This document shows positions 17,464-60,230 of a stretch of 60,463 nucleotides of DNA, piece by piece; position 1 is the first letter of the stretch; each line of letters starts with the position of its first letter. Where the stretch lies: IMG/VR virus record IMGVR_UViG_3300031861_000003, positions 1 to 60,463 of that record. One strand, written 5' to 3'. This DNA comes from a virus (taxonomy: Duplodnaviria; Caudoviricetes). Position numbers and translations under genes: made by a program. A model generated the notes under the pieces. The model was given only the letters and a program-made list of their open reading frames with translations. It was not told the DNA's origin and searched no databases.

Positions 17464-18558
17464 TTATTTTCTAGTAATCTGCGCTTGAGGAGGCTTGTCT
17501 GGATCATCAGTAGAACAGATGTTTGCTTGAGCACTGTCTGCATAGATATCTAGTTTAACTGGTTTTGTTATGAACTCTTGACAATTGAAGGCTTCATCTT
17601 TCAAGAATCCTCGGGATTTAAGTTTTCCAACGCTTTCGCAAATAGTCTTTTCATCTATTTCTCCGTCCACAAGAATATCAAAATAGTATTCTACATAAGT
17701 GTCATCTACGCTGGTGTTTGCGAGTGGTTTTTCTTTCGGGATCTCCAAAACTCCTTGAGAATTTATATTATCTTCTTTCGTTTTAAAACTTAATGGCGTA
17801 AGTTCTTTTCTATCATCAGAATATTTAAAGACTTCAATATCGAAATTCTCTGTTTGGAAGTCGTTGTTTTCTTCTAGGACTTGTGCTAGGACAAATTCTG
17901 GTGTAATAATATAAAATTTTCCATCAGAAGTTAAACCTAAGTTTAATTCGTCGGCTTGTACTAGAGAACTATAATCGTTTCCCACTAAGTTAATATCTCC
18001 GGGAGATGGATTCTTTATATCTGATAATCTCCAATTATGAACTGCATTTATTTCTAGTTGTGGGATGTGTTGGTTTTGGTGGCCCATATTTAATACTTCG
18101 GAGGAACGGCTGATCTCCGTTTCTAACATAGCAATATCCCAGGAGGGAGACCTGTCATTATATACTTGTGTTGTTCCTAGTGGCTGAGTTAAAGAGAATA
18201 GCTTTTCCTCTGTTGGGGGAATCTGGATTCTATTCATCTCATTTGTATTGGGATCTCCTCGGTCTTTCACAAACGCTGCATGGGTTCCTAAATCAAATTG
18301 TTCATCATAAAATCTTTTAAAACTTGTTTCGAGGCCGCTAAAGACATGTTGCGTCATAATTTGTGGTGTGTTTTCTTGTATTCTCGGTTCTATATCGTTT
18401 TGTTCTTCCGAGCCATCCGCATATGTAATGTCGTATAAAATATTGTCGTCAAAGAACGCATAATAAACTGGCTTTAACTTTCCTACGGAGAGGAGGTGTT
18501 TTCCATATTGTGTAAGTTGTAAATCAATGACTTGTTCTTTCTTATTAAAAAATTGCAT
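17464..18558 (-). CDS. Virion structural protein (baseplate-like)
   Basis: IDLQLTQYGKHLLS..KPVYYAFFDDNILYD aligns by eye with the N-terminus of 10350..11270. Confidence 0.65.
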   Translation of the reverse strand: MQFFNKKEQVIDLQLTQYGKHLLSVGKLKPVYYAFFDDNILYDITYADGSEEQNDIEPRIQENTPQIMTQHVFSGLETSFKRFYDEQFDLGTHAAFVKDRGDPNTNEMNRIQIPPTEEKLFSLTQPLGTTQVYNDRSPSWDIAMLETEISRSSEVLNMGHQNQHIPQLEINAVHNWRLSDIKNPSPGDINLVGNDYSSLVQADELNLGLTSDGKFYIITPEFVLAQVLEENNDFQTENFDIEVFKYSDDRKELTPLSFKTKEDNINSQGVLEIPKEKPLANTSVDDTYVEYYFDILVDGEIDEKTICESVGKLKSRGFLKDEAFNCQEFITKPVKLDIYADSAQANICSTDDPDKPPQAQITRK

Positions 18559-21500: not shown

Positions 21501-24500
21501 AGAGAATAGCGGGCGATTGACTGTTGCGGAGCCACCAGCAGTCGCGACTTTTATCTGCCCGTGTAACTGTGGTGCTGGTGATTGTAGTTCACCTTCTCCT
21601 CCGTGATAATGTGGGTAAAATGCTCCGACATTTCCGCAAGTATTATTGGAGGATGTTCCCATCTCTGTAACCCAATCATATGCTGTATCTGCTGTTTCAA
21701 AGTTCATCCGAGCGTCGAGGGGCCACATGCTTTGTGAGAAGCAAGTTAAATAAGTTATGTCATCATCGGTTCCAACTCCTCCAAAAGAAGCTGAATCGAG
21801 GACAAGTGTTCCGCTTTGAATGTTCTGAGAGTTTGTTGAGGAATTAACTAGATTTCTATCTGTTCTCGAATCTTTCCAGAACTTACATTCGAACTGTGTT
21901 CTAGAGCGGATTTTTCCTGTTGCCCAGTTTGCCTCTGCGGGATAGACTATTTCTGGGTATTTTAGTGATACAAATGCATCGATTGGGTTTGCATCGAGAT
22001 CAATTGAATCTCCTATGTAATACTCTTTTAGTGTGTCGAAAGATTGTTTTGTGTTTTTAATGAGGTTTGTTAGCTGAACTAGTCTAGCGTTTGAGAAGCT
22101 GGATAAGTTATTTCCGTAGGGTAGGCTTAATCTGATGTTGTTTGTTACTTTTCCAGCATCTCCGTATGTTGCGACTATTATTTCTAGTGTAAGATCTTTG
22201 TATTTTGATAATACTGGTGTTTCTTGATATCTCTCAAGAGGAAGTAGATCGGATTGAACCGCTGTTGTGCCAGCGTTTATTGTTGTTAGGTAATCTTTGT
22301 TTGGAGGATTAATTGTTATTGTATTATTAGCTCTGTAATATCTTGTTAATGGATTTTGGTCTCCGCGTATTTGTTTCCAAGAAGGCCAACCGTATGGCCC
22401 TTGGCGATGGAGGAGGAGTGAGTTTAGAATAAAAGAATTTCCGTCCTGGAGTCCCCAAGTCGGATTCTCCGGAGTAATCCCAAATATATGACCGTGATTT
22501 AAAACATAAGATGAAACCCCAGAAGCAGGAGGATATCCTAGTAGTGCAGTCTCTGGTGTTAAAAGATCCGTAATGTTAAAGTTGGTGCCTGCGAAATCCG
22601 TAAATCTTTGTGAATTAGGCAGTAGAGAAAGTAGCGGTGGACTATTTTTAGAAAAAGCAAAGTAACGAGGATTGCCTCCCGTCAAATCCTTGGCAGAAAT
22701 GGCATCACTCGCACTAACAAATTGCATATCTGCGGATGTAGTAAGACATTGATCTGATATCGTTGATGCTGTGATCCAAGCATATCGATAATCGTTGCGA
22801 GGGATATTGTGTTGAACGTAATAGTTGTCGTATTTTGTGCCGCAGGAGGATCCTGGAATATTGGAGGTTGGATGATATTCCGTGTTTCTATTAACTTGAT
22901 AGGGAGAACCAACTCCGCTGTAGTCCAAGGCGTTTGCCGATGAGCCGGCAGCTTCCTTTACATTTATGCCCGAGAAGTATCCGAACTGATTAACATGCGA
23001 AGATAAGATACTATTATTGACGCCTCTAACATCTAGATTTCTAGAGTTCATATCGTTGTTTGGCGAATATTCCCCGGAGTACCTGTCTAATCCCCAGCCA
23101 CCATCTGAATCACCCATCGTAGAGGGGTCTCCTGGCGCCGAGAAGCGATTCACGAAGACATGCTCGGTTCTACCACGGATAACCTTTTCAACGTCGCTAA
23201 GGGGGGAACCTGGGAATGAGGAGGAGATATAGTCTGTTGTTAAATCAAAGCCCTCGCTTTTCACGAAGTGAGCGTTGTTTTCATAGCGGCCCATTGTATG
23301 AACAATCTCGAAGTCTTTGGTATAGTTGCCAAGAGAATTGGTTTTGATGTTCTTAATATTAACTGGTCTTTTCGCTACGAAATCTCTGTAGTAAATTGCT
23401 CTCGGACTATTCAGGGCCTGAGTGACTATTTTTACTTCGCCAACAGAAGTTTCTAGCTTCCAGGGCTCAGGGCGAGTTGCTGGAGCTTCAAATAATTCTG
23501 TATGCCTATGCTGGTTTCCTCCCACAAATTTCTCTGTGAATGGACTCTGCATTGGCGCGGAGAAATCTCCGAATCCCTGGTTGTATGAATCATTGTGATA
23601 ATTCTTTAAACCGTAATTCCCGATACTTGTTGTTAACTTTCCGTCTTCGTCTACATATAGAGAAAATGGTGCAGTTATATCACCCTTTGGTGAAGTATAA
23701 CCTATTTCATCTCCAACTCTTTCTAGGGAGAAACCGGTTTTGTTTTTTGTTTCCAAGTCATCGAAATCTATACAATCGAGTTCTTGTGCAATATTACTTT
23801 GTTTAATTGTTAATTCTTCGGAGCCTCCGACCTTAAGTGTTGATTTTATGAAACCAGTGTTTCTGTTTCTGAAACTTAATGTTTCTGAGTCTACTACTGA
23901 TTGATCGAGCTTATACGGAGTGCTTAGTTTTCTATCAAATATTGATTTCTTTGCTTGATATATTTTAGTTCTATTCGCATTTTCTGGAACTCTTTTTATG
24001 TCTTGCCACAAACAGTTTTTATTATCAACCATTGGGATCGGAGCGTGGCCATGTTTCCAATCATAAGAAACCTCGCTAACTCCTCGTAATGCAGCTTCTG
24101 GATCTTCCTGCTTCATTTCTAGCGTTGGGAATTTTGTCCAATATTTGTTTCTTTCTAGAACATGACTCTCGACCATATTGCGGATTCTGTCAGAGAAATT
24201 TGCCGATGCTGGAATCAGTTGTTCTAGGAATTTGTTAAGCGAATCATCGATCCATTTGTAGAAATCAACGAATTTGTCTAAATCTGCTCCTGCTCCAACT
24301 CTTTCAAAAAAGAGGGCTCTGAGCTTTTGCATTGATTTATATTCTTGTCTGTATCTATTAACGGGGTCTCCGATAAGATTATTGAAGTCTGTGACGGTTG
24401 CGAAGATATTTAACATCTCGTCAGTAATCGCCTGATACATGCTTTTCTCAAATGCATAGTAATATTGTATTGGTCTTGTTTGTCTTGTGAAGGTATTATC

Positions 24501-31917: not shown

Positions 31918-34900
31918 TTAAATAATCTCTGTAGAGGTTGGTATTACCAAGCCGAGGGTGATTAGTTTATTGTCTCTTGGCTGTTTTAACGATTTTTGAG
32001 AAATGTTTTTCTTGCTCAACTTTGTGTCTGGGATATTATTTCTCTTTAAGGCTACTTGGCTTGGATTATCTTCTTTTATGAATTTGTTAGATGTTTTCTC
32101 ATATTTAGAATAATATAGGCCCTCGAACAAAGTTTTACAAACTTGCTTTGTGTTATCAAATAAGCCCTTATCAATTGAAAAGAAAAGTTTATCCAAGTTT
32201 GAGCGTTCTCCAAAGCTATTTTTATATTTTGTTCGACGGCGCAGAGAACTCATAAAATAATCCTGGTGATAAGTGACTGCTAATGAAACAAGTGTCTTGA
32301 TTGGGAAGAAATATTCAAAATATAATTTATAACTTTCAGTTTCCATAAGATTGTTGGAAAGACATGGGAATTGAGAGTTATAGTTTGAAATACTAACTGC
32401 CGTTGCCAGGGCTTGACGGGCGGTTAAAGAGGATACTGAATCTAGCGGAATTGAGGTTTCACAAATTATTGAAGAAGCAATTGGCTTATCAACACTTGTA
32501 CCTGTTACCGTGTCATCTGTGCCAATTCCTGTTATAACTGCTTTTGTTCTTTTTGCACTCTTTTTGGCATCGAAACTTAGATTTTCTCTTAAATGTGATC
32601 CAAGCTCATATTCTTTTCCGGAAGATTTATCCTTGTAAAGTAAGACTACTCTGAGTCCTATTGAAACTGATTCAAATAAATCTTCGAAGGAATACCCATC
32701 AAAAAGCCCTGCCTCAACTTTACTATTTAAAACATCAAAATTAATTACGCCCTGCATTTCTTCAAGATTTAAAATATCCCTTATTGATTCTGGAATCTCG
32801 CTCTTGGGGTGTATTTTAACAAATTTCTCCAAGATAAGAGGGCTTTCTGCAAGATTGCTTGCTTCATAAGATTCACTATACCAATCATCCTCTATATTTT
32901 TAGGAATGTTACAGGGCCAATTAGTTGGATCATGCTTACTTTGGAAGAATTGACTGTCTGGTGATTTATTCCCAAAGAACAATGATTGTATATTCTTTAT
33001 TGGTGGGTTAAGCCTGTCTGAAAAAGCGCTTGTTACTTTTTCTAATTCTTCCACGATGTATCTTCTTAAAATAATGTCCGAATATTTTTCTGTCTCTGTC
33101 ATAAATCTGCTGTATTTTTGTGCCTTGGCTGTTTCTTTGTTTGGTGCTGATTTTGGTTCTTTCCAATGTGATTGTTTGAGATTAATAATATCCAACGCAA
33201 TTTGTTCTTGCATTGTGGGTGTTATTCCACCTGTCTTAATTCTATTACTAAAACTTTGAACGATTTGTTCTTTAAAATTATAATAAAATGTTTTTTTAGT
33301 ATACTGGGTTCCATAAGACTTTAAATCCCCAAGTCTTATGAGTTCCTGTTTAACTTTCTCTATTAATATATTTGCATAAACATGATTTAAAATTCCATCT
33401 TTTTCTATCTCTAATTTAGTCATTGAATTCATGTGTAGCATGTTCATAAGCTGTTCAGTTAAAATTGTTCTTAATGTTGTTCTCAATATTGCTTCTATGG
33501 AGGCTGCTCCGTAAGTGTCAACGATTAAACCAAACGGCGGCTCGATAACGCATGAAGGATCTTCTGATTGAAGCCTCTCATCTTCCGGAAATTCTTCAAC
33601 ATTCTTTGATGCTTTTTCTGCTATATCATCGTAATTCATAAAGAATTCTGCTTCAGAATCTATTTCTGGTGATGGTGATAGTTTTAAATAACTCTTATAA
33701 TATCCATCATAATTATTAGAGTAGTCTCCACTATAAAAGAATGCTGGGTCTTCTATACTTCCAACTCCCAACACTTCCATTGCGGCTTCTGAATAATTAG
33801 TTGTGTCTGGTTGGTCCGTATTATACCCATGTAAATAATATTCACTCGCTTCATAGCCAGCGAATAGTTTATGCACGTTCAGGTACATTCCTTTTAAGAT
33901 GGGCGCCCAACTTATAACTGGAGCTAGCGGGAAAAATCTTTCTAAATCTGATTTTGATTTATTGGTAAAAATAGCAGATGGTGTGGTATCTGTGGCCAAA
34001 TCTGCATTTCCAAAGTATTGTGAATATTGTGCTAAATTAAAATCTTTAGAGTAGGTTCCAGTTAGACTATATTCTGAAAGGTTGTTTTTTATTTGTAAAG
34101 AGTAAAGATTGTCATTTAGAAAGTTAAATTTAATGTGGCCACTAGATATTGGGATTTGTACATTTTTGTTGCTGTGTTTTAGGAAAGAATTGTTTATCTC
34201 TATAACAGCATCTAATTTTGTTCCCGCGCCCGATTCATATTCCATGTCTTCTAAGTAAGTGGTTCTTTCTGTATTCTTTTTATATACAATTCTGCCTACT
34301 CCGCTATCATCTCCAAATATTTGTTTTCTAAAGGAATTGTAATCATTTATATCATTTATTGTTTCATACTCAGAATATCCACTATATGTCCTTTGATCAA
34401 CAGTTAGGGGGAGTCTCTCGGCTGCGCTCTTCCCAGAACGCACTAGTGCGGCTGCTGCTGTTTTGAAACTAACTCCGTCTATAGAGGATAATACATAATC
34501 AAAATATCCAGAAACATCATTTATCAAAGAAGATTCGATGGTTTTAAATAAATCTTTAAAATCTTCATTTAATTCCTCCTGATAAGAGGAAGTCTTACCC
34601 TCCAATAAATCCTCTAGCTCGTTCGCTTGCGGAGAGCCATCTTCCGGGAGACAAGACAGCTTTGGAGGCTTTGGCTGCATAAGTGAATCTGGATTTAACA
34701 ATACACCTAAAAAATCAGAAGCAGCGTCGAGATTTCTCTGCTTCGCTTTATCTATTTGTTTTTGGGCCTGTTCGGGAGTTAATCCTTTATTTTGCCAAAT
34801 TTGTTTTCTCAGATCATCAAAATCTTTTAAACTGGTTGGGTCTTTACATATATCAGAGTTAAAAGGTGCTGATGCATCTCCTTCTAACACCTCATTTATG

Positions 34901-37728
34901 AGATCATCATCAATAAGATTCCCCAATCCAGAAAATAAGCTTCCAAACTGTTCTGGTGAAGAGAATATGCTTGTCATGTCACAATCATCAGGCAATGTTC
35001 TGGCCAGTGAAAAGATAATTTTTAATGTTTCCTCTGATGCTACTCCATTTAATAGGGTTTTTACTTCACCGTTTGTTAATACTGAAGAGATAGAATCTAT
35101 AAATTTTTGCATACACTCGTCAGTTGGCTTAGTTGTACCATCCCAGGCGCCTATGGCGTCGGCAATCTCATTAACTGCGGCTGCTATTGATTCATCATCT
35201 GTATTCAGTGCATATGGATCTTCTTCTGGTTCTTCTCCACACAATGATTCTTCTAATAGGGCTCTAAGATTACATCCTCCCTCAAGAAAGTCTGCCGTCG
35301 TTGCTGCGATTGCTTGGCATGCTAGATCAACAGTAGTTGATAGGGCTTTTCCAAGAACAAGTTTAAATGCACCGAAGGCCAAGTCTTCTAGCTTTTTAAA
35401 GACGGTTTCTCTTATACTAAAATAAGTATCATCCCAAGCTTGTATATTTTTATATTTTGTAAAAGTTGGGGCAGTCCACCTTGTTGGCTCTGAACCACAC
35501 GGATCGAAAGTGAGTGTTTTTGCGAGATCTCTTAGGGGAGGATCAAAAAGCGGTGGGGCGCCGCATTTATTATCCCCAACCACATCTACTGTAAAATTCA
35601 ATACCTCAAAAACTGCTCTGCCTATTCCGGTATTGCTCAAAGATTCTTTAAGTTTTTCTAGCTCTTCCTGGACGGCAGAATCTAACAATCCCAACATATA
35701 ATCTGTAAATACATCCAAAATATCATCAGCCAAAGTTCCAAGGGTTCCTGCTGCTCCAAAATTTTTAACAACTCCGTTATGGTTTATGTCGACGCGATAG
35801 GGTCCATTTTCTGTTTGAATAATTAATTTTCCAGGAGGTCTTTCCTTCACACCAATGATAAAATTATCTTCTGTTATATCTCCCTCTGATATCTCGTCTT
35901 CCGGAATTAATCCACTTGGGCCGGCCACGCCAGGATCATAAAATCCACCTTTGTACTTCGATTCCCAGGGATAAATTCCTGATGCCGTTGCTTGTTCAAA
36001 TGCCTGACGAAATCCGACTTCCATTTCATCTGGTAATACTTCTATTATTTGTCTTATTTTATCTTCACTATCAACTGCTTTTATAATTTCTTTAAGGCCC
36101 AATAATATGATATCCTCCTCTCCAAAACCCTGTGCCACACAATCTAGTGTTTCTTTTATTATGCCAAGAATTGTACACTGATCTATTTTGGGAAAAAAGT
36201 TTTTGAACAGATCTTTAAAATTAGTTAATTTCTTAGAATCATTTACCTTATCTTTTTTGGTATATTGGTTTGCAGATATTTGAGCACAGGCGCTATCTTC
36301 CTTGGTAGATCCGGGGGCTCCAAGATTTAAGCCAAATCGTTTCTTCTGAGGTTTTCCTAACAGATTAAAAATTAATTCTGAAAATAAAGAATCGTCTGCA
36401 CAAAGCTCTCGAAGTTTTGCGTCTTTTAATCTTCGAATTCGTTCTTCTGTATTTTTTATTCTATTTTCAGCCTCTTTCTTTAATTTAATATAATCTTCTG
36501 GAGTTTTTGCTTGTCTTAGGGATTTACATAGTTCTTCAGTGAATGTATTAAAAATTGCTTCGGGATATGAAATTATTTCATTATTTATATTTCTTCCAAC
36601 TTTTTTAAATGACTGCTTTGCTTTTTCTTTTACTTTTTCTATATTTTTACATTTACTGTTTGCTTGTGAGGTATCTGATATACTAGAAGAATCAAAGCTG
36701 AATTCGGTTTGTCCAGATGAATTCTCTTTTACGAGGCTTTCTGAGATATCGGGTGGCAAAAAGTTAGTAACAAATTCTTCCCAGGAAGCTTGTTCTCCGG
36801 AGGATTTAAAATAAGCAACTGATTGTTCCATTTGGGAGAACAATATATTATTTATAAAATTTATCATAGGAGAAGAATTTAGATATGTTATCTTTTTCTT
36901 CTTTATTTCTTTATAATCGCATCCTATTTTCTTTACTTCAATTTTTTTTATCTTACTAAAATCTTCTTTATAATAAATTTTTATTCCATCAACTTTCTCA
37001 AAATTAAAAATTAAGTTATCTTTTAAAAAATCAAAAATGTTATTAGTATATTTTCTCATATGATGATAACTTTCTATTAAAGAAAAAACTTTTAATACAG
37101 CTTTTTGTTCAATTCTTGCCTTATCAAATAAAAATGATAAATATAGAAGACCATTCAAGTAAGTATCAACATTAGATTCAAATTCCTTAGGATTATAAAA
37201 CACATCTACTGGGGGTTTCTCCTCATCACTATCTTCATTATTTTCTGGCGGTTGGTCTTCCTCTGGGAGTTCTGGTATAGATGGAATAGAATTAAAAATA
37301 TCTGCTGGAACTGTTATTAAAACCTTTATTGGAACATATTTTGTATTAACATAAAAATCTAAATTTGTTATATCTTCTGGAGTTGCAGTTTCTAATAAAA
37401 ATTGATGTACACTAACTCCAGTATATACTTCATATAGAGGATCCTTATCATAAAAGTTAATTAATCCCGCTATTCCCTCTAACATTGCGGAAGTTAACAT
37501 CAATGATAGTTGCTCATCTCCTTCAATTACTTTATAGTCAGTTTCCACAACAATTGAATATTTACATGTCTTTTCATTTAGAAATGGTTCTGTTTGGTCT
37601 AGTGTCGTCCAATCGGGGATAGTTGCATTTGGGTTTGGAATACAAGTTGGACAGTCTACTGAGGGTATAATAACTTCACAAACTTCATTATCAATATTTA
37701 ATATTGCTTCTTTAAAATTATTTGCCAT
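31918..37728 (-). CDS. Very large, mostly helical, Cys-containing virion-associated protein
   Basis: 1936 aa between spike and gp25 genes; N-terminal CPTC; no family recognised. Confidence 0.55.
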   Translation of the reverse strand: MANNFKEAILNIDNEVCEVIIPSVDCPTCIPNPNATIPDWTTLDQTEPFLNEKTCKYSIVVETDYKVIEGDEQLSLMLTSAMLEGIAGLINFYDKDPLYEVYTGVSVHQFLLETATPEDITNLDFYVNTKYVPIKVLITVPADIFNSIPSIPELPEEDQPPENNEDSDEEKPPVDVFYNPKEFESNVDTYLNGLLYLSFLFDKARIEQKAVLKVFSLIESYHHMRKYTNNIFDFLKDNLIFNFEKVDGIKIYYKEDFSKIKKIEVKKIGCDYKEIKKKKITYLNSSPMINFINNILFSQMEQSVAYFKSSGEQASWEEFVTNFLPPDISESLVKENSSGQTEFSFDSSSISDTSQANSKCKNIEKVKEKAKQSFKKVGRNINNEIISYPEAIFNTFTEELCKSLRQAKTPEDYIKLKKEAENRIKNTEERIRRLKDAKLRELCADDSLFSELIFNLLGKPQKKRFGLNLGAPGSTKEDSACAQISANQYTKKDKVNDSKKLTNFKDLFKNFFPKIDQCTILGIIKETLDCVAQGFGEEDIILLGLKEIIKAVDSEDKIRQIIEVLPDEMEVGFRQAFEQATASGIYPWESKYKGGFYDPGVAGPSGLIPEDEISEGDITEDNFIIGVKERPPGKLIIQTENGPYRVDINHNGVVKNFGAAGTLGTLADDILDVFTDYMLGLLDSAVQEELEKLKESLSNTGIGRAVFEVLNFTVDVVGDNKCGAPPLFDPPLRDLAKTLTFDPCGSEPTRWTAPTFTKYKNIQAWDDTYFSIRETVFKKLEDLAFGAFKLVLGKALSTTVDLACQAIAATTADFLEGGCNLRALLEESLCGEEPEEDPYALNTDDESIAAAVNEIADAIGAWDGTTKPTDECMQKFIDSISSVLTNGEVKTLLNGVASEETLKIIFSLARTLPDDCDMTSIFSSPEQFGSLFSGLGNLIDDDLINEVLEGDASAPFNSDICKDPTSLKDFDDLRKQIWQNKGLTPEQAQKQIDKAKQRNLDAASDFLGVLLNPDSLMQPKPPKLSCLPEDGSPQANELEDLLEGKTSSYQEELNEDFKDLFKTIESSLINDVSGYFDYVLSSIDGVSFKTAAAALVRSGKSAAERLPLTVDQRTYSGYSEYETINDINDYNSFRKQIFGDDSGVGRIVYKKNTERTTYLEDMEYESGAGTKLDAVIEINNSFLKHSNKNVQIPISSGHIKFNFLNDNLYSLQIKNNLSEYSLTGTYSKDFNLAQYSQYFGNADLATDTTPSAIFTNKSKSDLERFFPLAPVISWAPILKGMYLNVHKLFAGYEASEYYLHGYNTDQPDTTNYSEAAMEVLGVGSIEDPAFFYSGDYSNNYDGYYKSYLKLSPSPEIDSEAEFFMNYDDIAEKASKNVEEFPEDERLQSEDPSCVIEPPFGLIVDTYGAASIEAILRTTLRTILTEQLMNMLHMNSMTKLEIEKDGILNHVYANILIEKVKQELIRLGDLKSYGTQYTKKTFYYNFKEQIVQSFSNRIKTGGITPTMQEQIALDIINLKQSHWKEPKSAPNKETAKAQKYSRFMTETEKYSDIILRRYIVEELEKVTSAFSDRLNPPIKNIQSLFFGNKSPDSQFFQSKHDPTNWPCNIPKNIEDDWYSESYEASNLAESPLILEKFVKIHPKSEIPESIRDILNLEEMQGVINFDVLNSKVEAGLFDGYSFEDLFESVSIGLRVVLLYKDKSSGKEYELGSHLRENLSFDAKKSAKRTKAVITGIGTDDTVTGTSVDKPIASSIICETSIPLDSVSSLTARQALATAVSISNYNSQFPCLSNNLMETESYKLYFEYFFPIKTLVSLAVTYHQDYFMSSLRRRTKYKNSFGERSNLDKLFFSIDKGLFDNTKQVCKTLFEGLYYSKYEKTSNKFIKEDNPSQVALKRNNIPDTKLSKKNISQKSLKQPRDNKLITLGLVIPTSTEII

Positions 37729-49949: not shown

Positions 49950-50025
49950 GGGGGTGTAGCTCATCTGGGAGAGCATCTGCTTTGCACGCAGAAGGTAGCA
50001 GGTTCGAGTCCTGTCACCTCCACCA
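49950..50025 (+). tRNA. trnA: tRNA-Ala (anticodon TGC) with encoded CCA
   Basis: Acceptor stem GGGGGTG/CACCTCC with G3:U70, anticodon arm TCTGC-TTTGCAC-GCAGA, T-loop GTTCGAG, ACCA end; 76 nt. Confidence 0.97.
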
Positions 50026-55476: not shown

Positions 55477-57636
55477 ATGGGTGGTGTTGGCGGTCACATG
55501 ATGCACCTATATGATAATCCTCTTCTCACATTTAGTGAGATGAGAGAAATCTTTGATCTCGCCGCAGCAGGAGCCCTTAAGGGAACAGAAAAGACAGATG
55601 GTCAAAATCTGTTTATTTCCTATTCTATTAAAGATGGCAAAGCTAAAGCTGCTAGAAACAAGTCAAATATCAAAGCAGGTGGTTTAACCGCCACTGAGCT
55701 AGCTGAAAAGTTCGCTGGTCGAGGATCCTTAGAAAAAACATTTGTTGAATCTTTTGAAGCCTTTGAAAGAGTTGCTCAACGCCTAAGACCAGAACAGCAA
55801 GAGAACATATTTGGACCAGACACTAATATTTATTATAGTGCAGAGGTTTTGGATCCTCGAAGTGTAAATGTCATCAGTTATGATACAAAATCACTAGTAA
55901 TCCATAGATCTGCTTCAGAATTTGATAGAAATACAGGAAACCCTACAGATAGGGATGTAAGCGGCAACATTACCTTCCTCTCAGACGCCCTAGAGAACGA
56001 GCAAGAGAATATGGCGGAAGATGACTATGGAGTGCAGTTGGACGCCATACAAGACCTACAGGAGTTCCTAGATCAAGAGTTCTTGCAAGAAACACAATCG
56101 AGGCTAACAGATCTACTAAAAGAACAGAGTATTTCAGATGATCAAACAATTTTAGACTTTATGATCTCCAAAATAAAGAAAACTCTCTATAATGAATATA
56201 ATTTAACGGAGAACATTTCAAGAGAAGTCTTGAAATACATTATTACATCAAATTCAATAATTAAAGATAAGTATAATATCTCCAGAAGAGCCTCTAAGAA
56301 CAATATTGTAAAACTAGCCCAGAATCCCGAAGAGGCTAAAAATGCAACCGAGGCGATGAATAACACAAAAGAAATAATGTCAGATTCACTAATGGGATTA
56401 GAAGACATAGTGCATGACTTTTCAGTAGAAGCGGTGAAGGGCCTAAGAAGCTTATTCATTTTAGATGATAAGCAAGAAAAAGAAATGCTTCGCTTAAGAA
56501 GAGAGACAGAAAGAGCAATAACAGCAATCGAGAACTCTGGTAATGAAGAGGCGATGTTTATTCTCCAGAAACAAATGAAAAAGCTGAAATCATTAGAAAA
56601 TATTAATACAGCCTCAGAAGGTTTTGTTTTTGACTATGATGGTAGCACTTATAAATTTACAGGCAACTTCGCCCCGATGAATCAACTACTTGGTTTATTC
56701 AAATATGGCAGAGGCTCAGTTCCTCCGCTAGAAAAACTAGATGAATTCTCTATTAATGATGATCCGGGATATACTATGCCACAAAAGAAGAAAGATCTTG
56801 TTGTTGTATACCCAGGAAGGTTTCAACCAATGGGAAAACATCACGCCGCTGCATTTAGCGGATTACAAAGAGAATTCGGAGAAAATAATGTATATGTTGT
56901 TTCTTCCAATGTGGTTTCTCCACCAAAATCTCCATTTAATTTTGAAGAGAAGAAAAAGATTATAATGGCTCATGGAATTCCAGAGGATAGGATAATACAA
57001 GCTAGAAATCCGTATGCACCGGTAGAATTGTTATCCAGCCTCTCGCCAGACACTGTTGTTTTATTCGCAGTAGGTGATAAGGATATGAGAGAGAGTCCAA
57101 GATTTAGGGTTGGCCTTAAAAAGAACGGAGAACCTTCTTATTTTAGACACTATAGAAATAATATAGATAATCTTGAGTCCTATGAAAAACATGGTTATTT
57201 AACAGTATTACCACACCAATCACTTGATGTTGAGGGATATGGTGAAATGAGTGGCACAACTCTCAGAAAAGTCCTCGCAGGTGCAGATAAACAAACCTTT
57301 GAAAATATCATGGGTTTCTTCAACGAAGAAATTTATAATCTAATGAAAGAGAAATTAGTAAGTGAGGTTAGAGAATCATTCTCGCTCCCTTTTTTGGATG
57401 CTCTGGTTGAAGAAGTATTAAATGAAGTCCATTCAGAGAAACAAAGAAGGTGGGCTTGCTCGCAAATGGAAGAACCAAGGGAACTCACCAAAGCACAAGC
57501 AAAAGAAATGTGTTATTCTAAGGATTTGGAAGAAGAGGAAGAGCTTGAAGAAATGTCATCTATGGGAGCAGGATCCGTAGAGGGTTATTCCGGCTCGACT
57601 AAAAAGAAGAAGCCACAAAGTATTATACGCCAGTAA
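55477..57636 (+). CDS. Fusion of a ligase-type nucleotidyltransferase domain and a HIGH-superfamily cytidylyltransferase/NMNAT-like domain
   Basis: TEKTDGQN (KxDG), ARNK, SAEV, SEGFVF, YKFTG; then YPGRFQPMGKHH, SPFNFEEK, MSGTTLR. Confidence 0.75.
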   Translation: MGGVGGHMMHLYDNPLLTFSEMREIFDLAAAGALKGTEKTDGQNLFISYSIKDGKAKAARNKSNIKAGGLTATELAEKFAGRGSLEKTFVESFEAFERVAQRLRPEQQENIFGPDTNIYYSAEVLDPRSVNVISYDTKSLVIHRSASEFDRNTGNPTDRDVSGNITFLSDALENEQENMAEDDYGVQLDAIQDLQEFLDQEFLQETQSRLTDLLKEQSISDDQTILDFMISKIKKTLYNEYNLTENISREVLKYIITSNSIIKDKYNISRRASKNNIVKLAQNPEEAKNATEAMNNTKEIMSDSLMGLEDIVHDFSVEAVKGLRSLFILDDKQEKEMLRLRRETERAITAIENSGNEEAMFILQKQMKKLKSLENINTASEGFVFDYDGSTYKFTGNFAPMNQLLGLFKYGRGSVPPLEKLDEFSINDDPGYTMPQKKKDLVVVYPGRFQPMGKHHAAAFSGLQREFGENNVYVVSSNVVSPPKSPFNFEEKKKIIMAHGIPEDRIIQARNPYAPVELLSSLSPDTVVLFAVGDKDMRESPRFRVGLKKNGEPSYFRHYRNNIDNLESYEKHGYLTVLPHQSLDVEGYGEMSGTTLRKVLAGADKQTFENIMGFFNEEIYNLMKEKLVSEVRESFSLPFLDALVEEVLNEVHSEKQRRWACSQMEEPRELTKAQAKEMCYSKDLEEEEELEEMSSMGAGSVEGYSGSTKKKKPQSIIRQ

Positions 57637-57687: not shown

Positions 57688-58575
57688 ATGATTAATAGAG
57701 AAGAATTTATTGGAGAACAGCTTTTAAGAGAAGCAATCCAAAAACTTATTAAAAAGAAGAAGAGTAAGAGTATTCAAGAAGAGAAATCACTTCGTAAAGC
57801 AATCAGAGGCTTATTAAGAGAAGAAACAGCAAAGAAAACAATCTATCCCTATACTTCTCTTAATGTTCTCTCCGATTTCATCAAAAATCAAGTTTATAAA
57901 CCAACTTCCAACTTTAAATCGGCATATATGACGCTATCTTCAAGTAAAGAAGATCGGGAAAGGTTCCTACAACATATTCTAGATCTTTCGAGAGAAGACA
58001 TGAAAAGAATGGATATGAATATGGAGCCCCTCAAGGATCCTTCTAAAATGGAGAAAGATCAAGCAGATAAAGATGAGTTAGAAGCAACTCCAGAAGAGGA
58101 AGTCAACAAAGACGAACCTATTATAGTCACCATGCAAGATCTTGACTCAAAAGGAGGCATGGTTGGTGATGAAGATGAAGAACCAATCGGAATTCCCGGA
58201 GAAGAGAATTTACAAGAAGATGATGAAGAACCAGTATCTGATCCAGACAATCGCGCAGAAAGAGATGCAGTTAGAAACTACGCTAACGAGACTTATAAGG
58301 GTTTCGGCTCTTCTTTGAGAACATATTACGAGAAAGTTCCAGACAACATTGTAAAAGTCAATGTCGAGGGCGAAGAAAGACAAATATCAGAAAAAGAATT
58401 GTTCTCTCTTTATCTCGAAAAGAATCTAATTGCTCATTCACAGATGGCAGAGCAATATATGGATTCAGAGAGTACTCTCACAACAGATGTCCCTGACGCT
58501 GATTCTAGCGCAGGAGATTTAGAGGCTGATACAGAAGAAGCCTCGGGTATTGAAGACTTAGACTTGGATATCTAG
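57688..58575 (+). CDS. Acidic hypothetical protein, possible head-internal/scaffold-like
   Basis: Repeated LLREAIQKLI / LRKAIRGLLREE leader; D/E-rich linkers. Confidence 0.65.
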   Translation: MINREEFIGEQLLREAIQKLIKKKKSKSIQEEKSLRKAIRGLLREETAKKTIYPYTSLNVLSDFIKNQVYKPTSNFKSAYMTLSSSKEDRERFLQHILDLSREDMKRMDMNMEPLKDPSKMEKDQADKDELEATPEEEVNKDEPIIVTMQDLDSKGGMVGDEDEEPIGIPGEENLQEDDEEPVSDPDNRAERDAVRNYANETYKGFGSSLRTYYEKVPDNIVKVNVEGEERQISEKELFSLYLEKNLIAHSQMAEQYMDSESTLTTDVPDADSSAGDLEADTEEASGIEDLDLDI

Positions 58576-58961
58576 TGCCGAAGCGCCTAAAGTGGGAAAA
58601 GAAGCGTAAAAACACCAGGAAAGACCGGGGTGTTAATAAAAGCTATAGTATTCTCAACAAACTTCGCAAAGAAGGCAAAACAACAGAAGAGTTTGAGGTA
58701 ATGATGAATAACCTCTCACTTGAAGAACTTCTAGCCGCAAAATTAGAGCTAGCAACGAAACCAATGAACCATAGACTTTATGGGTTCAATGTTTGGTATG
58801 TAATGAAGCCAGTACTCGACTCAGCGCTGCTCATCTATGCTATGTCTGCTACTAGAACGAAAAGAGAAGCTATGAAATTTCTAGGCTTTAATAACTCAGA
58901 AGATTTTAACAAACTACTTAAGAAGTACAAGATTAAAGAAGTTTTTGAAGAAGATACTTGA
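58575..58961 (+). CDS. Protein with C-terminal Fis-type helix-turn-helix
   Basis: ALLIYAMSATRTKREAMKFLGF....FNKLLKKY resembles the Fis/HTH_8 pattern. Confidence 0.6.
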   Translation: MPKRLKWEKKRKNTRKDRGVNKSYSILNKLRKEGKTTEEFEVMMNNLSLEELLAAKLELATKPMNHRLYGFNVWYVMKPVLDSALLIYAMSATRTKREAMKFLGFNNSEDFNKLLKKYKIKEVFEEDT

Positions 58962-58986
58962 CATTTAGCACACACTATGTTATATT
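58958..58986 (+). promoter_or_regulatory. Sigma70-type promoter for a non-coding transcript
   Basis: TTGACA-17 nt-TATATT with TG extension; -35 overlaps the TGA stop of the Fis-like gene. Confidence 0.8.
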
Positions 58987-59000
58987 TAAGTATAATGTAA

Positions 59001-59215
59001 TAAAGAGGAGAATAGATAGGGTTATTGGTGGTAATTTAATATAATATAAGCATCAATAAGGAAAGAGTAAATATAATATAACGGTTTTGCACATTGTCTG
59101 TTTGTGCTTAGAATCAAGGAGAATATTACTTTCTTTTAAAATCTTAAATAAAACAGAATAGCATGTTGGCTCTGTAAGTAAACCAACCTGCTCTTTCTTT
59201 CCCTATCCCTCTTTA
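59001..59215 (+). ncRNA. Candidate structured non-coding RNA of unrecognised family
   Basis: ORF-free and bounded by promoter and terminator; nested helices 59001-59008/59208-59215, 59015-59021/59201-59207, 59022-59030/59051-59059, 59060-59069/59189-59198, 59089-59093/59103-59107, 59165-59169/59183-59187. Confidence 0.7.
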
Positions 59216-59219
59216 AATT

Positions 59220-59244
59220 AAACCCGGCGATTGTCGGGTTTTTT
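59220..59244 (+). terminator. Rho-independent terminator
   Basis: AAACCCGGC-GATT-GTCGGGTTT followed by a T run. Confidence 0.88.
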
Positions 59245-59246
59245 AC

Positions 59247-59275
59247 TTGACAATCATCTGCTCCTGTGTTATAAT
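59247..59275 (+). promoter_or_regulatory. Perfect sigma70 promoter for the lipoprotein gene
   Basis: TTGACA-17 nt-TATAAT, then AGGAG RBS and ATG 59292. Confidence 0.85.
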
Positions 59276-59291
59276 ATACATAAGGAGAAAG

Positions 59292-60230
59292 ATGAAACAC
59301 TTAATTAATCACTATGGCTTACTAATTCTATGTACAATCTTAATGGTTTTAACAGTTTTTCTAGCATCATGCGGAAACGATAATATTATCCTCGTTCTTG
59401 ACGATACTGATATCATAGATACAGAAGATACAGAAACTGATATTATTCTACCAGACGACGCTATCGGAGGATACTTAAAATATTCGTTAACCCAAATAGC
59501 GTGTCCTGCATGCTTTAACGAGACGGAAGAATTAGATGTACGGATGCAAGCGCTGTTCCACCTTCCCATAACAGGCTCTTGGACCTCGGCTCTACCACAG
59601 AGAGGAGAGTGTGTTTCTAACATATTAGAGATCACCCCATCAGTTAATCAAGTTAGAGTAGGTTATAAGATAGATTTCACTGGTGAGTGGTCAACAGGCT
59701 ATATGTATGAGCAGGGAACTGTAGCTCAGTCTGATTTCTTGTATACTACAGGTTATATGGCCGAAGCCAACTATAATAGAGATACTTGGCACGATTTATA
59801 TATTTCTGATCATGATGTCGCCATACCCAATGCGTTCAAGAGCATCCACGGCTTTGATTATGTTGAACCATACGAGCTAATGTGGATTGATCCTTCATAC
59901 GCCTTCGCAGTAACCCTATTTCGATCGGGAATGTCATTTTCTTGGGGCCCAAGTGGTAGTGATAGCGACTTCATGATAATGGTGGCATCATACGACCCCT
60001 ATAGTGGTGTTTACTTGGGCAATATAGCCTGTATGGGCGCTGATACAGGGCAAATGTACATTCCACCCGAATATGCAGCCCTCTTGCCCACAAACACCCT
60101 TGCAAGCGTCCATTTCCAACGCCATAGGGTTAGCAAATTTGCATTTGACCACTTTCCCTCTTATAACTTCAGTGTCGCGATTGAGACGCATATGTTCTGG
60201 GAAGCGGTTGGTACGGGATACATTGAATGA
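59292..60230 (+). CDS. Lipoprotein (start revised to MKHLINHYG)
   Basis: Signal peptide ending in lipobox FLASC, D/T-rich linker, CPAC and further Cys, beta-rich body. Confidence 0.75.
   Translation: MKHLINHYGLLILCTILMVLTVFLASCGNDNIILVLDDTDIIDTEDTETDIILPDDAIGGYLKYSLTQIACPACFNETEELDVRMQALFHLPITGSWTSALPQRGECVSNILEITPSVNQVRVGYKIDFTGEWSTGYMYEQGTVAQSDFLYTTGYMAEANYNRDTWHDLYISDHDVAIPNAFKSIHGFDYVEPYELMWIDPSYAFAVTLFRSGMSFSWGPSGSDSDFMIMVASYDPYSGVYLGNIACMGADTGQMYIPPEYAALLPTNTLASVHFQRHRVSKFAFDHFPSYNFSVAIETHMFWEAVGTGYIE

What the first reader, a model, noticed from the sequence alone, without database searches (positions are those of the whole stretch)
58958..59244. Stand-alone, highly structured ~220-250 nt non-coding RNA gene of unrecognised type
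Seen: its own sigma70 promoter and intrinsic terminator, no ORF, and the next gene has a separate promoter, so this is not a 5' leader. The 5' and 3' ends pair (TAAAGAGG/CCTCTTTA; GATAGGG/CCCTATC). They enclose TTATTGGTG/CATCAATAA and GGAAAGAGTA/TGCTCTTTCT, which in turn closes GGTTTT/AAAATC, GCACA/TGTGC and GTTGG/CCAAC. The GCACA loop (TCTGTT, 59097-59102) can pair with AACAGA (59152-59157) as a pseudoknot. Inference: an early trans-acting RNA (ribozyme, protein decoy/antitoxin or RNAP regulator). I cannot match it to tmRNA, RNase P, SRP or 6S by eye.
Basis: partly seen in the sequence, partly recalled or inferred. Interest (0 to 1): 0.85.

Follow-up and report, generated by a model that had tools for sequence, protein, structure and literature searches.

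The report
New pseudoknotted RNA gene in marine phages
This stretch is a real non-coding RNA gene of an uncultured marine phage, one member of a conserved, knotted RNA family that no RNA catalogue lists and whose job is still unknown.

Summary
Window 58958-59245 (+) carries a near-consensus sigma70 promoter, about 250 nt with no conserved ORF, an intrinsic terminator, and then a separate consensus promoter for the next gene.

Rfam 15 has no match.

The RNA is not an orphan. A covariance model built from 11 relatives, without the window, hits 59075-59189 at 63 bits, E 1.5e-12.

I collected 80 distinct family members. All sit just downstream of a small Fis/NtrC-like HTH gene in uncultured marine phages of roughly 160-190 kb. 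There was one copy per record in the 7 of 10 records where a model scored.

In most relatives a tRNA or tmRNA follows within about 60 nt. In the window and its closest relative the RNA stands alone.

Function is not shown. My best guess is an early-made, stable, protein-bound RNA. A cis-acting leader, a riboswitch and a ribozyme remain open.

It may already be listed, unnamed, in the closed supplement of an IMG/VR screen (PMC10690425).

The parts
58575..58961 (+). Upstream gene p128: a 128-aa protein with a basic N-terminus and a Fis/NtrC-like C-terminal helix-turn-helix. It is the constant left neighbour of the RNA family.
   Evidence: ORF. 196 homologs. Weak Fis match at E 0.29 over the HTH. 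Foldseek ranks NtrC and Fis DNA-binding domains highest, but none is significant. It lies upstream of 4 of 4 members found by RNA pattern alone.
58958..58986 (+). Sigma70-type promoter of the RNA: TTGACA, 17 nt, TATATT, with an extended TG. The -35 hexamer overlaps the p128 stop codon.
   Evidence: 11 of 12 positions. A promoter-like match lies upstream of 69 of 80 distinct family members.
58993..59245 (+). Inferred transcript of about 250 nt. The start is inferred from the -10 box and the end from the terminator.
   Evidence: Inference. No transcript data were available (one search listed no run).
59001..59021 (+). 5' strands of the two outer helices (TAAAGAGG 59001-08, GATAGGG 59015-21).
   Evidence: An equivalent outer pairing with a different sequence exists in L091. 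This is a single comparison only.
59022..59059 (+). Peripheral 5' hairpin (TTATTGGTG / CATCAATAA).
   Evidence: I6. L091 has a hairpin of different sequence at the same place.
59060..59069 (+). P1, 5' strand (GGAAAGAGTA). It pairs with 59189-59198.
   Evidence: I16. A flank duplex of a different sequence was found in 20 of 20 subfamily members; 17 of the 20 score z < -2 against shuffled flanks, and the window scores z -3.5. P1 covaries in the short forms (7 of 8 pairs).
59075..59189 (+). Conserved core, as matched by covariance model R2, which was built without the window.
   Evidence: 63.2 bits, E 1.5e-12. The next best match in the 60-kb window has E 0.22.
59089..59107 (+). H1 hairpin: GCACA, loop TTGTCTGTT, TGTGC.
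   Evidence: The H1 helix is 99.5% paired, with 4 of 5 pairs changed on both sides, in alignment A5.
59097..59102 (+). Pseudoknot 5' strand (TCTGTT), inside the H1 loop.
Evidence: In the family this helix is not part of either model, yet it is 92.7% paired in A5 and 99.2% paired in A6, with an extra pair seen as C-G 21, G-C 13 and A-U 12. By my own reading, the window's G59100-C59154 pair replaces the family's C-G pair. The model's alignment placed gaps at this spot.
59116..59136 (+). Variable middle hairpin (AAGGAGA / TTTCTTT).
   Evidence: Predicted only. Relatives have hairpins of differing length and sequence here.
59152..59157 (+). Pseudoknot 3' strand (AACAGA), preceded by an A-rich stretch.
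59159..59162 (+). Nearly invariant TAGC between the pseudoknot and P3.
   Evidence: TA and G are invariant or nearly so in alignments A2, A4 and A6.
59163..59189 (+). P3 hairpin (GTTGG 59165-69 / CCAAC 59183-87) with a 13-nt loop.
   Evidence: P3 is 100% paired with 5 of 5 pairs changed on both sides in A5, and has 7 of 7 such pairs in A6.
59189..59215 (+). 3' strands of P1 (59189-98) and of the outer helices (59201-07, 59208-15).
59220..59245 (+). Intrinsic terminator: a 9-bp stem with 5 G-C pairs, a 4-nt loop and a T-run.
59247..59275 (+). Separate consensus promoter (12 of 12 positions) of the next gene.
   Evidence: The same layout is seen in L091.
59283..60230 (+). Downstream gene p315, lipoprotein-like. 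It is the right neighbour only here and in L091.
   Evidence: No Pfam or PHROG family. 73% identical to the L091 gene.

Best explanation
The interval is a self-contained gene for a structured non-coding RNA of about 250 nt.

Its 115-nt core (59075-59189) belongs to a conserved RNA family with this layout: a closing helix P1; a hairpin H1 whose loop forms a pseudoknot with the stretch just 5' of a near-invariant UAGC; and a hairpin P3 that stacks directly on P1.

The family is not in Rfam 15. In the records searched it occurs once per record. It always lies right behind a small Fis/NtrC-like HTH gene whose stop codon lies in or next to the RNA's sigma70-type promoter. It is found in a lineage of uncultured marine myovirus-like phages of about 160-190 kb, usually at the head of their tRNA/tmRNA cluster.

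Shown: the gene signals, the homology and the fold.

Inferred: host RNA polymerase makes the RNA early. In this phage it is released as a free, stable RNA at its own terminator; in most relatives it would be released by processing at the 5' end of the following tRNA or tmRNA. It then works as a compact protein-binding RNA in trans. The candidate partners are the upstream HTH protein or a host translation or RNA-processing factor.

I put about 0.9 on 'a real member of a new conserved RNA family' and about 0.45 on the trans-acting, protein-bound mode of action.
For: Gene signals:
- Promoter with 11 of 12 positions, terminator, and a second promoter with 12 of 12 positions for the next gene.
- No conserved ORF.

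Homology:
- Model R2, built without the window, hits 59075-59189 at 63.2 bits, E 1.5e-12. It is the only match in the 60 kb below E 0.2.
- R1 and R2 together give 80 distinct sequences. Of the 56 matches kept in A6, 55 are on the + strand of their loci, just after the p128 homolog; the one minus-strand match (L179) lies just downstream of a minus-strand p128 homolog.
- R1 and R2 cross-detect each other's members.

Fold:
- A5: 97.2% of 605 cells paired, 12 of 16 pairs changed on both sides, 0 of 500 shuffles as high. Slid controls give 42-56%.
- A6: 94.3% of 1291 cells paired, 21 of 26 pairs changed on both sides. Slid controls give 38-48%.
- The pseudoknot, which neither model contains, is 92.7% and 99.2% paired. 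Its extra pair occurs as C-G 21, G-C 13 and A-U 12.
- A P1-type flank duplex was found in 20 of 20 subfamily members, each with a different sequence. 17 of the 20 score z < -2.

Strand: frequent G-U pairs, for example U-G 23 and U-G 15.

Free-standing here: a strong terminator is followed by its own promoter, in the window and in the 74% relative L091 only.

Stable-RNA company: 17 members are followed by a tRNA within 5-20 nt, and at least 24 by a tmRNA within 12-62 nt, out of the 78 members with at least 60 nt downstream.

Single copy: 1 match in each of the 7 of 10 records that scored.

Link to p128 without ascertainment bias: 4 of 4 members found by RNA pattern alone have p128 just upstream.

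Precedent that phage HTH regulators bind structured RNA motifs: abstract of PMC13551039.
Against: - There is no transcript evidence. No RNA run was listed, which says nothing either way.
- No partner protein or target has been identified.
- In most relatives the RNA is at the very 5' end of a longer transcript, with no terminator and no second promoter before the next gene. A second promoter occurs in only 2 of 78 members. In some (L024, L068) a ribosome-binding site follows within about 10-15 nt. That layout is typical of a cis-acting leader.
- The upstream HTH gene also occurs in phages without the RNA, where the same promoter drives the tmRNA directly (e.g. L020, L021, L029).
- The outer helices and the 5' hairpin of the window rest on one relative only.
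- H1 and P3 counts come from alignments fitted to those helices, so they lean towards the structure.
Confidence: 0.45

Rival explanations
1. It is a cis-acting 5' leader. The folded RNA acts on the complex that is transcribing it. One option is processive antitermination or protection from Rho, comparable in role to the put and nut elements or to the leaders of rRNA operons. The other is that it is the RNA operator through which the adjacent HTH protein controls whatever early genes lie downstream, as Aca proteins do.
For: - The RNA starts within about 5-30 nt of the -10 box in the short forms. A promoter-like match lies upstream of 69 of 80 members.
- The downstream genes differ (tRNA, tmRNA, cytidylyltransferase, epimerase, an 80-90 aa protein, a lipoprotein), while the left neighbour and the promoter are constant.
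- Untranslated tRNA/tmRNA operons are natural Rho targets (established knowledge).
- In the window a terminator directly follows the RNA, which is the arrangement expected downstream of an antitermination element.
- Aca1 and Aca2 HTH proteins bind RNA motifs in 5' UTRs (abstract of PMC13551039).
Against: - The window and L091 have an independent consensus promoter right after the RNA, so read-through is not needed there.
- 44 of 78 members have a U-run within 35 nt after the RNA, as an independent RNA gene would.
- The fold is far more elaborate than the known put, nut or Aca motifs (recalled from memory).
- No similarity to any Rfam leader.
Confidence: 0.3
2. It is a riboswitch-like aptamer. 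A small molecule stabilises the pseudoknot and P1, and P1 plus the following U-run then terminates transcription before the tRNA, tmRNA or early genes. The analogy is the glutamine riboswitch placed ahead of the tmRNA of phage Melnitz.
For: - The pseudoknotted junction has near-invariant unpaired nucleotides and variable peripheral hairpins.
- It sits directly after the transcription start.
- A U-run lies right after P1 in many members (44 of 78).
- In the short forms two alternative pairings compete for the same bases: the top of H1 and the pseudoknot extension.
- Precedent: passages of PMC9004378 read describe an early promoter, then a glutamine riboswitch, then a tmRNA.
Against: - The downstream genes have no common metabolic theme.
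- The window's RNA is insulated from the next gene by a terminator and a new promoter.
- No Rfam riboswitch class matches, including in E-value mode.
- The window lacks an evident antiterminator alternative (my reading).
Confidence: 0.1
3. It is a self-cleaving ribozyme. It might be a rewired relative of the pistol class, which also has a hairpin loop that pairs with a stretch flanked by A-rich and (A)GC nucleotides just before a hairpin. It would help to cut the RNA away from the following tRNA or tmRNA.
For: - The local layout resembles the pistol ribozyme as I recall it; this comes from memory, not from a call.
- Non-circular permutations of a ribozyme class do exist, for hammerheads (passages of PMC10085705).
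- HDV-like ribozymes sit next to phage tRNAs (search listing and start of abstract of PMC10879173).
- 41 or more of 78 members abut a tRNA or tmRNA.
Against: - The Rfam pistol, hatchet, twister, twister-sister, hammerhead and HDV models give nothing at E <= 10.
- The connectivity differs from pistol: the closing helix encloses the pseudoknot hairpin.
- P3 runs straight into the 3' strand of P1 with no conserved unpaired dinucleotide where pistol cleaves.
- RNase P already defines the tRNA and tmRNA 5' ends (established knowledge).
Confidence: 0.07
4. There is no functional RNA. On this view the interval is a spacer between genes with chance self-complementarity, a DNA-level element such as an origin with AT-rich repeats, or a decayed small gene.
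For: - The region is AT-rich and has short direct repeats (TAAGTATAATGTAA / TAAATATAATATAA, and AGGAGAATA twice).
- The minus strand also folds better than shuffles (z -3.09).
Against: - Compensatory changes keep four helices across 80 distinct sequences, while slid controls fall to about 40-55% paired.
- G-U pairs fit one strand only.
- No ORF is shared with L091.
Confidence: 0.02

Closest known systems
Phage T4 small stable RNAs rnaC and rnaD (species 1 and species 2 RNA)
   Same: They are phage-encoded, non-coding, stable RNAs of 119-139 nt that lie in the tRNA gene cluster (GenBank annotation). In relatives of the window the new RNA likewise abuts tRNA and tmRNA genes. That the T4 RNAs have no known function is recalled from memory, not taken from the record.
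   Different: There is no detectable homology. Neither R1 nor R2, run with filters off, hits the rnaC or rnaD intervals at E <= 10. The T4 RNAs lie at the distal end of the cluster, whereas the new RNA lies at its promoter-proximal end.
Glutamine riboswitch ahead of the tmRNA gene of marine phage Melnitz
   Same: It is a structured RNA placed between an early promoter and a phage tmRNA gene in a marine myophage (passages of PMC9004378).
   Different: No Rfam riboswitch model matches. The new RNA also precedes unrelated genes, and in the window it is a separate transcription unit. The p128 gene has no relative in GenBank phage records.
Pistol self-cleaving ribozyme
   Same: In both, a hairpin loop forms a pseudoknot of about 5-6 bp with a stretch that has an A-rich run on its 5' side and AGC followed by a hairpin on its 3' side. 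The pistol layout is recalled from memory.
   Different: The Rfam model gives no match. The strand order differs, and there is no conserved junction dinucleotide after P3. Cleavage has not been tested.
RNA motifs bound by phage HTH regulators (Aca1, Aca2)
   Same: A small phage HTH regulator gene lies next to a conserved structured RNA at the 5' end of an early transcript (abstract of PMC13551039).
   Different: In those systems the motif lies in the 5' UTR of the regulator's own operon. Here the RNA follows the regulator gene, is much larger and is pseudoknotted. Binding has not been tested.
Unnamed candidate structured RNAs 'DNAVirus_N' from IMG/VR (Fremin, Bhatt, Kyrpides 2023)
   Same: They come from the same data source (IMG/VR intergenic regions) and the same kind of evidence (covariation), and give 8495 novel candidates of 29-151 nt (outline and passages of PMC10690425).
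   Different: The main text that I read names no such RNA next to a tmRNA or an HTH gene. The list itself is in supplementary files, which I could not open, so prior listing can be neither confirmed nor excluded.

Membership tests
New phage RNA family defined here (models R1 and R2) | Significant match to a covariance model built without the window | tested here: met
   R2 hits 59075-59189 (+) at 63.2 bits, E 1.5e-12. R1, the short-form model, does not reach E <= 10 on the window.
New phage RNA family defined here (models R1 and R2) | H1 hairpin whose loop pairs with the stretch just 5' of UAGC (pseudoknot) | tested here: met
   Window TCTGTT 59097-59102 pairs with AACAGA 59152-57, next to TAGC 59159-62. 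The family pseudoknot is 92.7% and 99.2% paired and covaries.
New phage RNA family defined here (models R1 and R2) | P3 hairpin directly after UAGC, stacked on the closing helix P1 | tested here: met
   Window P3 is 59165-69 / 59183-87 and P1 is 59060-69 / 59189-98. The P1 flank duplex scores z -3.5 for the window.
New phage RNA family defined here (models R1 and R2) | Position just downstream of the p128 HTH gene, behind a sigma70-type promoter at its stop codon | tested here: met
   Also 4 of 4 members found by RNA pattern alone.
Any Rfam 15 family (tmRNA, RNase P, SRP, 6S, riboswitches, small ribozymes, GOLLD/ROOL and others) | Score at or above the family's gathering threshold | tested here: not met
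   In the whole window only the tRNA at 49950-50022 passes. In E-value mode on 58800-59400 the best match has E 0.47 at 19.6 bits against a cut-off of 100. In 20 relatives' loci only tRNA and tmRNA pass. E-value mode on L012 and L027 returns only noise.
Pistol ribozyme | Strand order: hairpin, then 5' strand of the closing helix, then pseudoknot partner, then hairpin, then cleavage dinucleotide, then 3' strand (recalled from memory) | tested here: not met
   In the new family the 5' strand of the closing helix lies upstream of the pseudoknot hairpin, and no conserved unpaired dinucleotide follows P3.
Pistol ribozyme | Self-cleavage | not testable with these tools
   This needs an in vitro transcription and cleavage assay.
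T4 rnaC / rnaD stable RNAs | Sequence and structure homology | tested here: not met
   R1 and R2, with filters off, on T4 positions 69000-76000 give no hit over rnaC (locus 1909-2047) or rnaD (locus 2054-2172) at E <= 10.
Riboswitch | Association with functionally coherent downstream genes, and a ligand-dependent expression platform | tested here: not met
   The downstream genes are diverse. The window's RNA is followed by a terminator and a new promoter. Ligand binding cannot be tested here.
Retron msr-msd RNA | Adjacent reverse-transcriptase gene | tested here: not met
   The neighbours are the p128 HTH gene and the lipoprotein-like p315. Neither has a Pfam family, and none is an RT.
Type III toxin-antitoxin RNA antitoxin | Tandem direct repeats next to a toxin gene | tested here: not met
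   No tandem repeat array: only two-copy short repeats of 9-30 nt.
Processive antitermination RNA (put- or nut-like) | Promoter-proximal structured RNA that lets RNA polymerase read through downstream terminators | tested here: inconclusive
   The position fits, and a terminator follows in the window. The activity cannot be tested here.

The most novel reading that the evidence does not exclude
The core is a new catalytic RNA: a self-cleaving ribozyme related to the pistol class by a non-circular rearrangement of its strands. Marine phages would use it at the head of their tRNA/tmRNA operons. A second reading is nearly as novel and more likely, at about 0.2-0.3: an RNA that reprograms the transcribing RNA polymerase, or pairs with the Fis-like protein, to license expression of the phage's untranslated stable-RNA operon.
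Probability: 0.07. Interest if true: 0.9.

Novelty: categorically new. Interest (0 to 1): 0.7.

Why it matters
Phage-encoded structured RNAs with strong comparative support and no assigned class are rare starting points for new RNA biology. This one has four covarying helices, including a pseudoknot, and a fixed genomic address: behind a Fis-like regulator and in front of the phage's tRNA and tmRNA genes. It occurs in a widespread but uncultured group of large marine phages.

Whichever function turns out to be right, it bears on how phages take over host gene expression early in infection, and on why some phages carry their own tmRNA. The candidates are a protein-binding stable RNA, a polymerase-modifying leader, a sensor or a ribozyme.

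The RNA is short enough (about 110-130 nt in the short forms) for direct structural and biochemical work. The covariance models built here allow it to be annotated in viromes.

One caveat on novelty: an automated IMG/VR screen (PMC10690425) may already list it as an unnamed candidate in supplements that I could not read.

Tried and rejected
Expression. The look-up of sequencing runs (kind rna) on window 58400-59700 listed no run (none was listed).

Known families. Rfam at gathering threshold and in E-value mode gave nothing relevant for the window or for relatives. The sub-threshold names returned (SQ2397, CopA, CLRN1-AS1 and others) are terminator or low-complexity noise.

Close relatives by single protein. 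p128 and p315 searched as single proteins against IMG/VR found nothing. blastn of the region and tblastn of p128 against GenBank phages found nothing. Relatives appeared only through p719 and through the p128 alignment A1.

L005, a 39% p128 relative, has no counterpart RNA. A cytidylyltransferase gene follows p128 directly there.

Cellular genomes. The short-form pattern matched 29 places in the GTDB representative genomes. This is of the order expected by chance (my estimate), and 0 of the 29 were confirmed by R1 at E <= 1. The exact pattern is insensitive, so absence from cells is not shown.

T4 rnaC and rnaD. No homology by R1 or R2.

Coding. No conserved small ORF.

Other kinds considered and dropped:
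- Retron: no RT gene nearby.
- Type III antitoxin: no tandem repeats.
- CsrA sponge: no GGA loops.
- Replication origin or primer RNA: the covariation is at the RNA level, and the downstream content varies.
- The boxA-like run in the window's P1 3' strand and the boxB-like P3 loops of some short forms: the P1 sequence is not conserved across the family, and the motifs themselves are recalled from memory.

My first motif scans by script mis-called several loci. They were replaced by the covariance models.

The model's alignment of the window's pseudoknot 3' strand contains misplaced gaps. The register I give for the window is my own reading.

p128 structure. The AlphaFold model is of only moderate confidence (mean pLDDT 67.8), and Foldseek found no significant match (best E 0.97). 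'Fis-like' therefore remains a weak label.

I did not run complex prediction, the protein-atlas search, the search of protein representatives or the listing of cluster members.
Full report
WHAT IS AT THE COORDINATES

The window is an IMG/VR virus record of 60,463 bp, estimated to be 33% complete. It has myovirus-like tail and baseplate genes, PhoH, an SbcC-like nuclease and one tRNA-Ala.

At 58958-58986 lies TTGACA, 17 nt, TATATT with an extended TG, matching 11 of 12 positions. At 59220-59241 lies a 9-bp hairpin with 5 G-C pairs, followed by a T-run. At 59247-59275 lies a perfect 12-of-12 promoter ahead of the ATG at 59283. The TGA stop of the upstream 128-aa gene (p128, 58575-58961) lies inside the -35 hexamer.

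Between promoter and terminator there are only ORFs of 28, 31 and 54 aa. None has a counterpart in the closest relative.

GGTTTT/AAAATC competes with a local GGTTTT/AGAATC pairing that the MFE fold prefers.

The + strand folds at -64.6 kcal/mol, z -3.54, with 1 of 200 shuffles as good. The minus strand gives z -3.09, so the energy is suggestive only.

IS IT KNOWN?

Rfam 15 at gathering threshold finds only the tRNA in the whole window. In E-value mode on 58800-59400 the best of 6 matches has E 0.47 and 19.6 bits against a cut-off of 100, and the matches are terminator-driven.

FINDING RELATIVES

DNA and single-protein searches failed.

The protein p128 has 196 homologs at E <= 1e-3 among 230 candidates. 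They range from 96% down to about 45% identity and come largely from marine metagenomes.

I aligned 23 of them (A1) and scanned two collections. In IMG/VR, 165 of 287 candidate stretches were confirmed as p128 relatives. In metagenome contigs, 361 of 598 were confirmed. The best 80 were kept from each.

The gene order p719, p295, p128 is widely conserved. In many loci a TTGACA-type promoter sits at the p128 stop codon, as it does in the window.

Reading the downstream DNA showed a recurring non-coding element, often followed at once by a tRNA-Gly or a tmRNA.

THE FAMILY

Thirteen short forms aligned well (A2) and gave model R1, which contains P1, H1 and P3.
- Over 84 sources, R1 gave 49 matches at E <= 10. 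Thirty-nine of these had E <= 0.04, and all 39 were on the + strand just after p128.
- Over the 80 metagenome loci, R1 gave 36 matches, 30 of them below E 0.06.
- R1 did not reach the window.

A second group looks like the window: L091, L062, L055, L072, L074, L089, L116, L162, L040, L045 and L088. These 11 were aligned without the window (A4) and gave model R2, which contains H1 and P3 only.
- R2 hits window 59075-59189 (+) at 63.2 bits, E 1.5e-12. The next best match in the 60 kb has E 0.22.
- Over 100 sources, R2 gave 46 matches. These include long forms that R1 also finds, which ties the groups into one family.

After removing identical sequences I count 80 distinct members.

STRUCTURE AND COVARIATION

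The shared layout, from 5' to 3', is:
- the 5' strand of P1;
- an A/U-rich joiner;
- hairpin H1;
- a joiner, often carrying a variable hairpin and ending in an A-rich run;
- the pseudoknot partner of the H1 loop;
- a near-invariant UAGC;
- hairpin P3;
- the 3' strand of P1, directly after P3.

Alignment A5 (46 matches, 42 distinct rows):
- 97.2% of 605 cells are standard pairs.
- 12 of 16 pairs show changes on both sides, in 90 cells.
- 0 of 500 shuffles reach these values.
- Partners slid by 1-3 columns give 42-56% paired.

Alignment A6 (56 matches, 51 distinct rows):
- With my first structure, 91.3% of cells are paired and 20 of 27 pairs are changed on both sides.
- I then replaced the weak top of H1 with a two-pair extension of the pseudoknot beyond a bulged U. 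This gives 94.3% of 1291 cells paired and 21 of 26 pairs changed on both sides, against 38-48% in slid controls.

H1, P3 and P1 are part of the models, so their counts lean towards the structure. The pseudoknot is in neither model. Even so, it is 92.7% paired in A5 and 99.2% paired in its five core pairs in A6. One of its pairs occurs as C-G 21, G-C 13, A-U 12, G-U 1 and other 4.

In the window subfamily, P1 was not in the model. A script found a duplex between the 5' and 3' flanks, of a different sequence each time, in 20 of 20 members. It scores z < -2 against shuffled flanks in 17 of the 20, and z -3.5 for the window.

The window's own pseudoknot, TCTGTT with AACAGA, fits the family register. 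It carries a G-C pair where the family has C-G. This is my own reading, because the model's alignment put gaps at that spot.

Frequent U-G pairs fix the strand.

The window's extra outer helices and its 5' hairpin have counterparts of different sequence in L091. That locus has a 74% identical p128 and the same neighbours. This is one comparison only.

CONTEXT

- Of the 80 distinct members, 69 have a promoter-like match within 140 nt upstream. In the short forms the model match begins 5-30 nt after the -10 box.
- Of the 78 members with at least 60 nt downstream, 17 are followed by the tRNA at 5-20 nt. Twenty-four are followed by a tmRNA at 12-62 nt by my regular expression. About 7 more, judged by eye in the listing, were missed by that expression.
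- Forty-four of the 78 have a run of four or more T within 35 nt.
- Only 2 of the 78, the window and L091, have a second promoter within 120 nt.
- Other right-hand neighbours are a cytidylyltransferase, an epimerase, membrane proteins, and a conserved 80-90 aa protein in 12 of the 19 subfamily loci examined.
- The RNA was found once in each of the 7 of 10 whole records where a model scored.
- In a complete 193-kb record, the tmRNA lies far from the RNA.
- Exact-pattern scans of IMG/VR returned 23 and 6 places. The four new true members (L179, L224, L225, L227) all have p128 directly upstream, and the one false match (L193) has not.
- The same pattern matched 29 places in GTDB genomes. None was confirmed by R1.

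p128 has a basic N-terminus and a C-terminal helix-turn-helix. The HTH aligns weakly with Fis (E 0.29). Its fold ranks NtrC and Fis DNA-binding domains highest, but without significance.

WHAT IT DOES

Nothing in my calls shows function.

I favour a free, stable, protein-bound RNA made early, at about 0.45. In this phage and in its nearest relative it is a closed transcription unit. In most others it shares an operon with stable RNAs, from which RNase P processing would release it. It is single-copy, and its fold is as elaborate as those of RNAs that act as folded particles.

The main rival, at about 0.3, is a cis-acting leader. This could be an antitermination or anti-Rho element for an untranslated operon, or the RNA operator of the neighbouring HTH protein, as shown for Aca1 and Aca2 (abstract of PMC13551039). 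This reading fits the constant promoter-proximal position and the changing downstream genes.

A riboswitch has a precedent in phage Melnitz, where a glutamine riboswitch precedes the tmRNA (passages of PMC9004378). It fits the varied downstream genes poorly, so I give it about 0.1.

A ribozyme is suggested only by a recalled likeness to the pistol layout. It is weakened by the different strand order and by the lack of a conserved junction after P3, so I give it about 0.07.

LITERATURE

Three full-text searches found no description of this RNA.

Fremin, Bhatt and Kyrpides (PMC10690425) report 8495 unnamed candidates from IMG/VR. I read the outline and passages.

The T4 rnaC and rnaD RNAs are the nearest analogue by context, but they are not homologous.

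VERDICT

The RNA belongs to a conserved family that is new to Rfam. Its mechanism remains open.

Noticed in passing
L013 3129-3371, L018 3044-3285, L027 2665-2976, L062 1424-1745 (relatives): Relatives of this phage encode their own one-piece tmRNA, with tag peptides such as ANDNVALSLAA, ANDNVSFDYALAA and ANNNNHFDSIRLAA. It usually lies 12-62 nt after the new RNA and is preceded by a conserved GTTCTTTAAAA..TAT leader. No tmRNA was found in the window itself, which holds only a third of the genome.
   Followed up: partly
L026, L027, L039, L067, L019, L025, L030 (long forms), about 60-90 nt upstream of H1: The long forms carry an extra 5' hairpin. Its loop contains GGTGCYAAAC, and the loop appears to pair with the 3' end of the RNA (for example CTATGAGGG with CCTTCATAG, and GCGTGGAGG with CCTCCGCGC). 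This would be a possible second pseudoknot. It was seen by eye and was not counted.
   Followed up: no
L072 3017-3286, L074, L089, L116, L040, L045, L088, L162, L108, L160, L134, L123: A conserved 78-90 aa protein (motifs DLAYSEY, SDDGGR, RT[IV]V[IV]Y) starts shortly after the end of the RNA, as set by hand, in 12 of the 19 window-like loci examined. The window has no homolog of it.
   Followed up: partly
window 55477-57636: The 719-aa protein carries a cytidylyltransferase-like domain at about residues 436-635 (PHROG 395, E 8e-9). In relatives (L005, L024, L011, L107, L132) a separate cytidylyltransferase gene lies after p128 or after the RNA. This suggests gene fusion or shuffling around this locus.
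   Followed up: no
window 18558-27374 and 31918-37728 (- strand): Two giant ORFs of 2938 aa and 1936 aa lie in the structural module. The first has a Laminin_G_3 / concanavalin-like lectin domain (E 2.7e-15). The second has no Pfam family.
   Followed up: no
window 59006-59014 and 59117-59125: The Shine-Dalgarno-like 9-mer AGGAGAATA occurs twice inside the RNA, both times in purine-rich strands that pair with pyrimidine-rich strands. No usable start codon follows either copy.
   Followed up: partly
window 49950-50025: A tRNA-Ala (UGC) lies at the switch between the minus-strand structural genes and the plus-strand early-looking genes.
   Followed up: no
window 59283-60230 and L091 2209-3153: The gene after the RNA encodes a protein with a lipoprotein-like signal (hydrophobic stretch, then ...ASCG...). 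It has no Pfam or PHROG family, and I found it only in the window and in L091 (73% identity).
   Followed up: partly
L020, L021, L029, L033, L034, L080, L082, L083 (relatives): In these p128-bearing phages the promoter at the p128 stop codon drives the tmRNA directly, with no copy of the new RNA in between. The HTH gene and the promoter are therefore more widespread than the RNA.
   Followed up: partly
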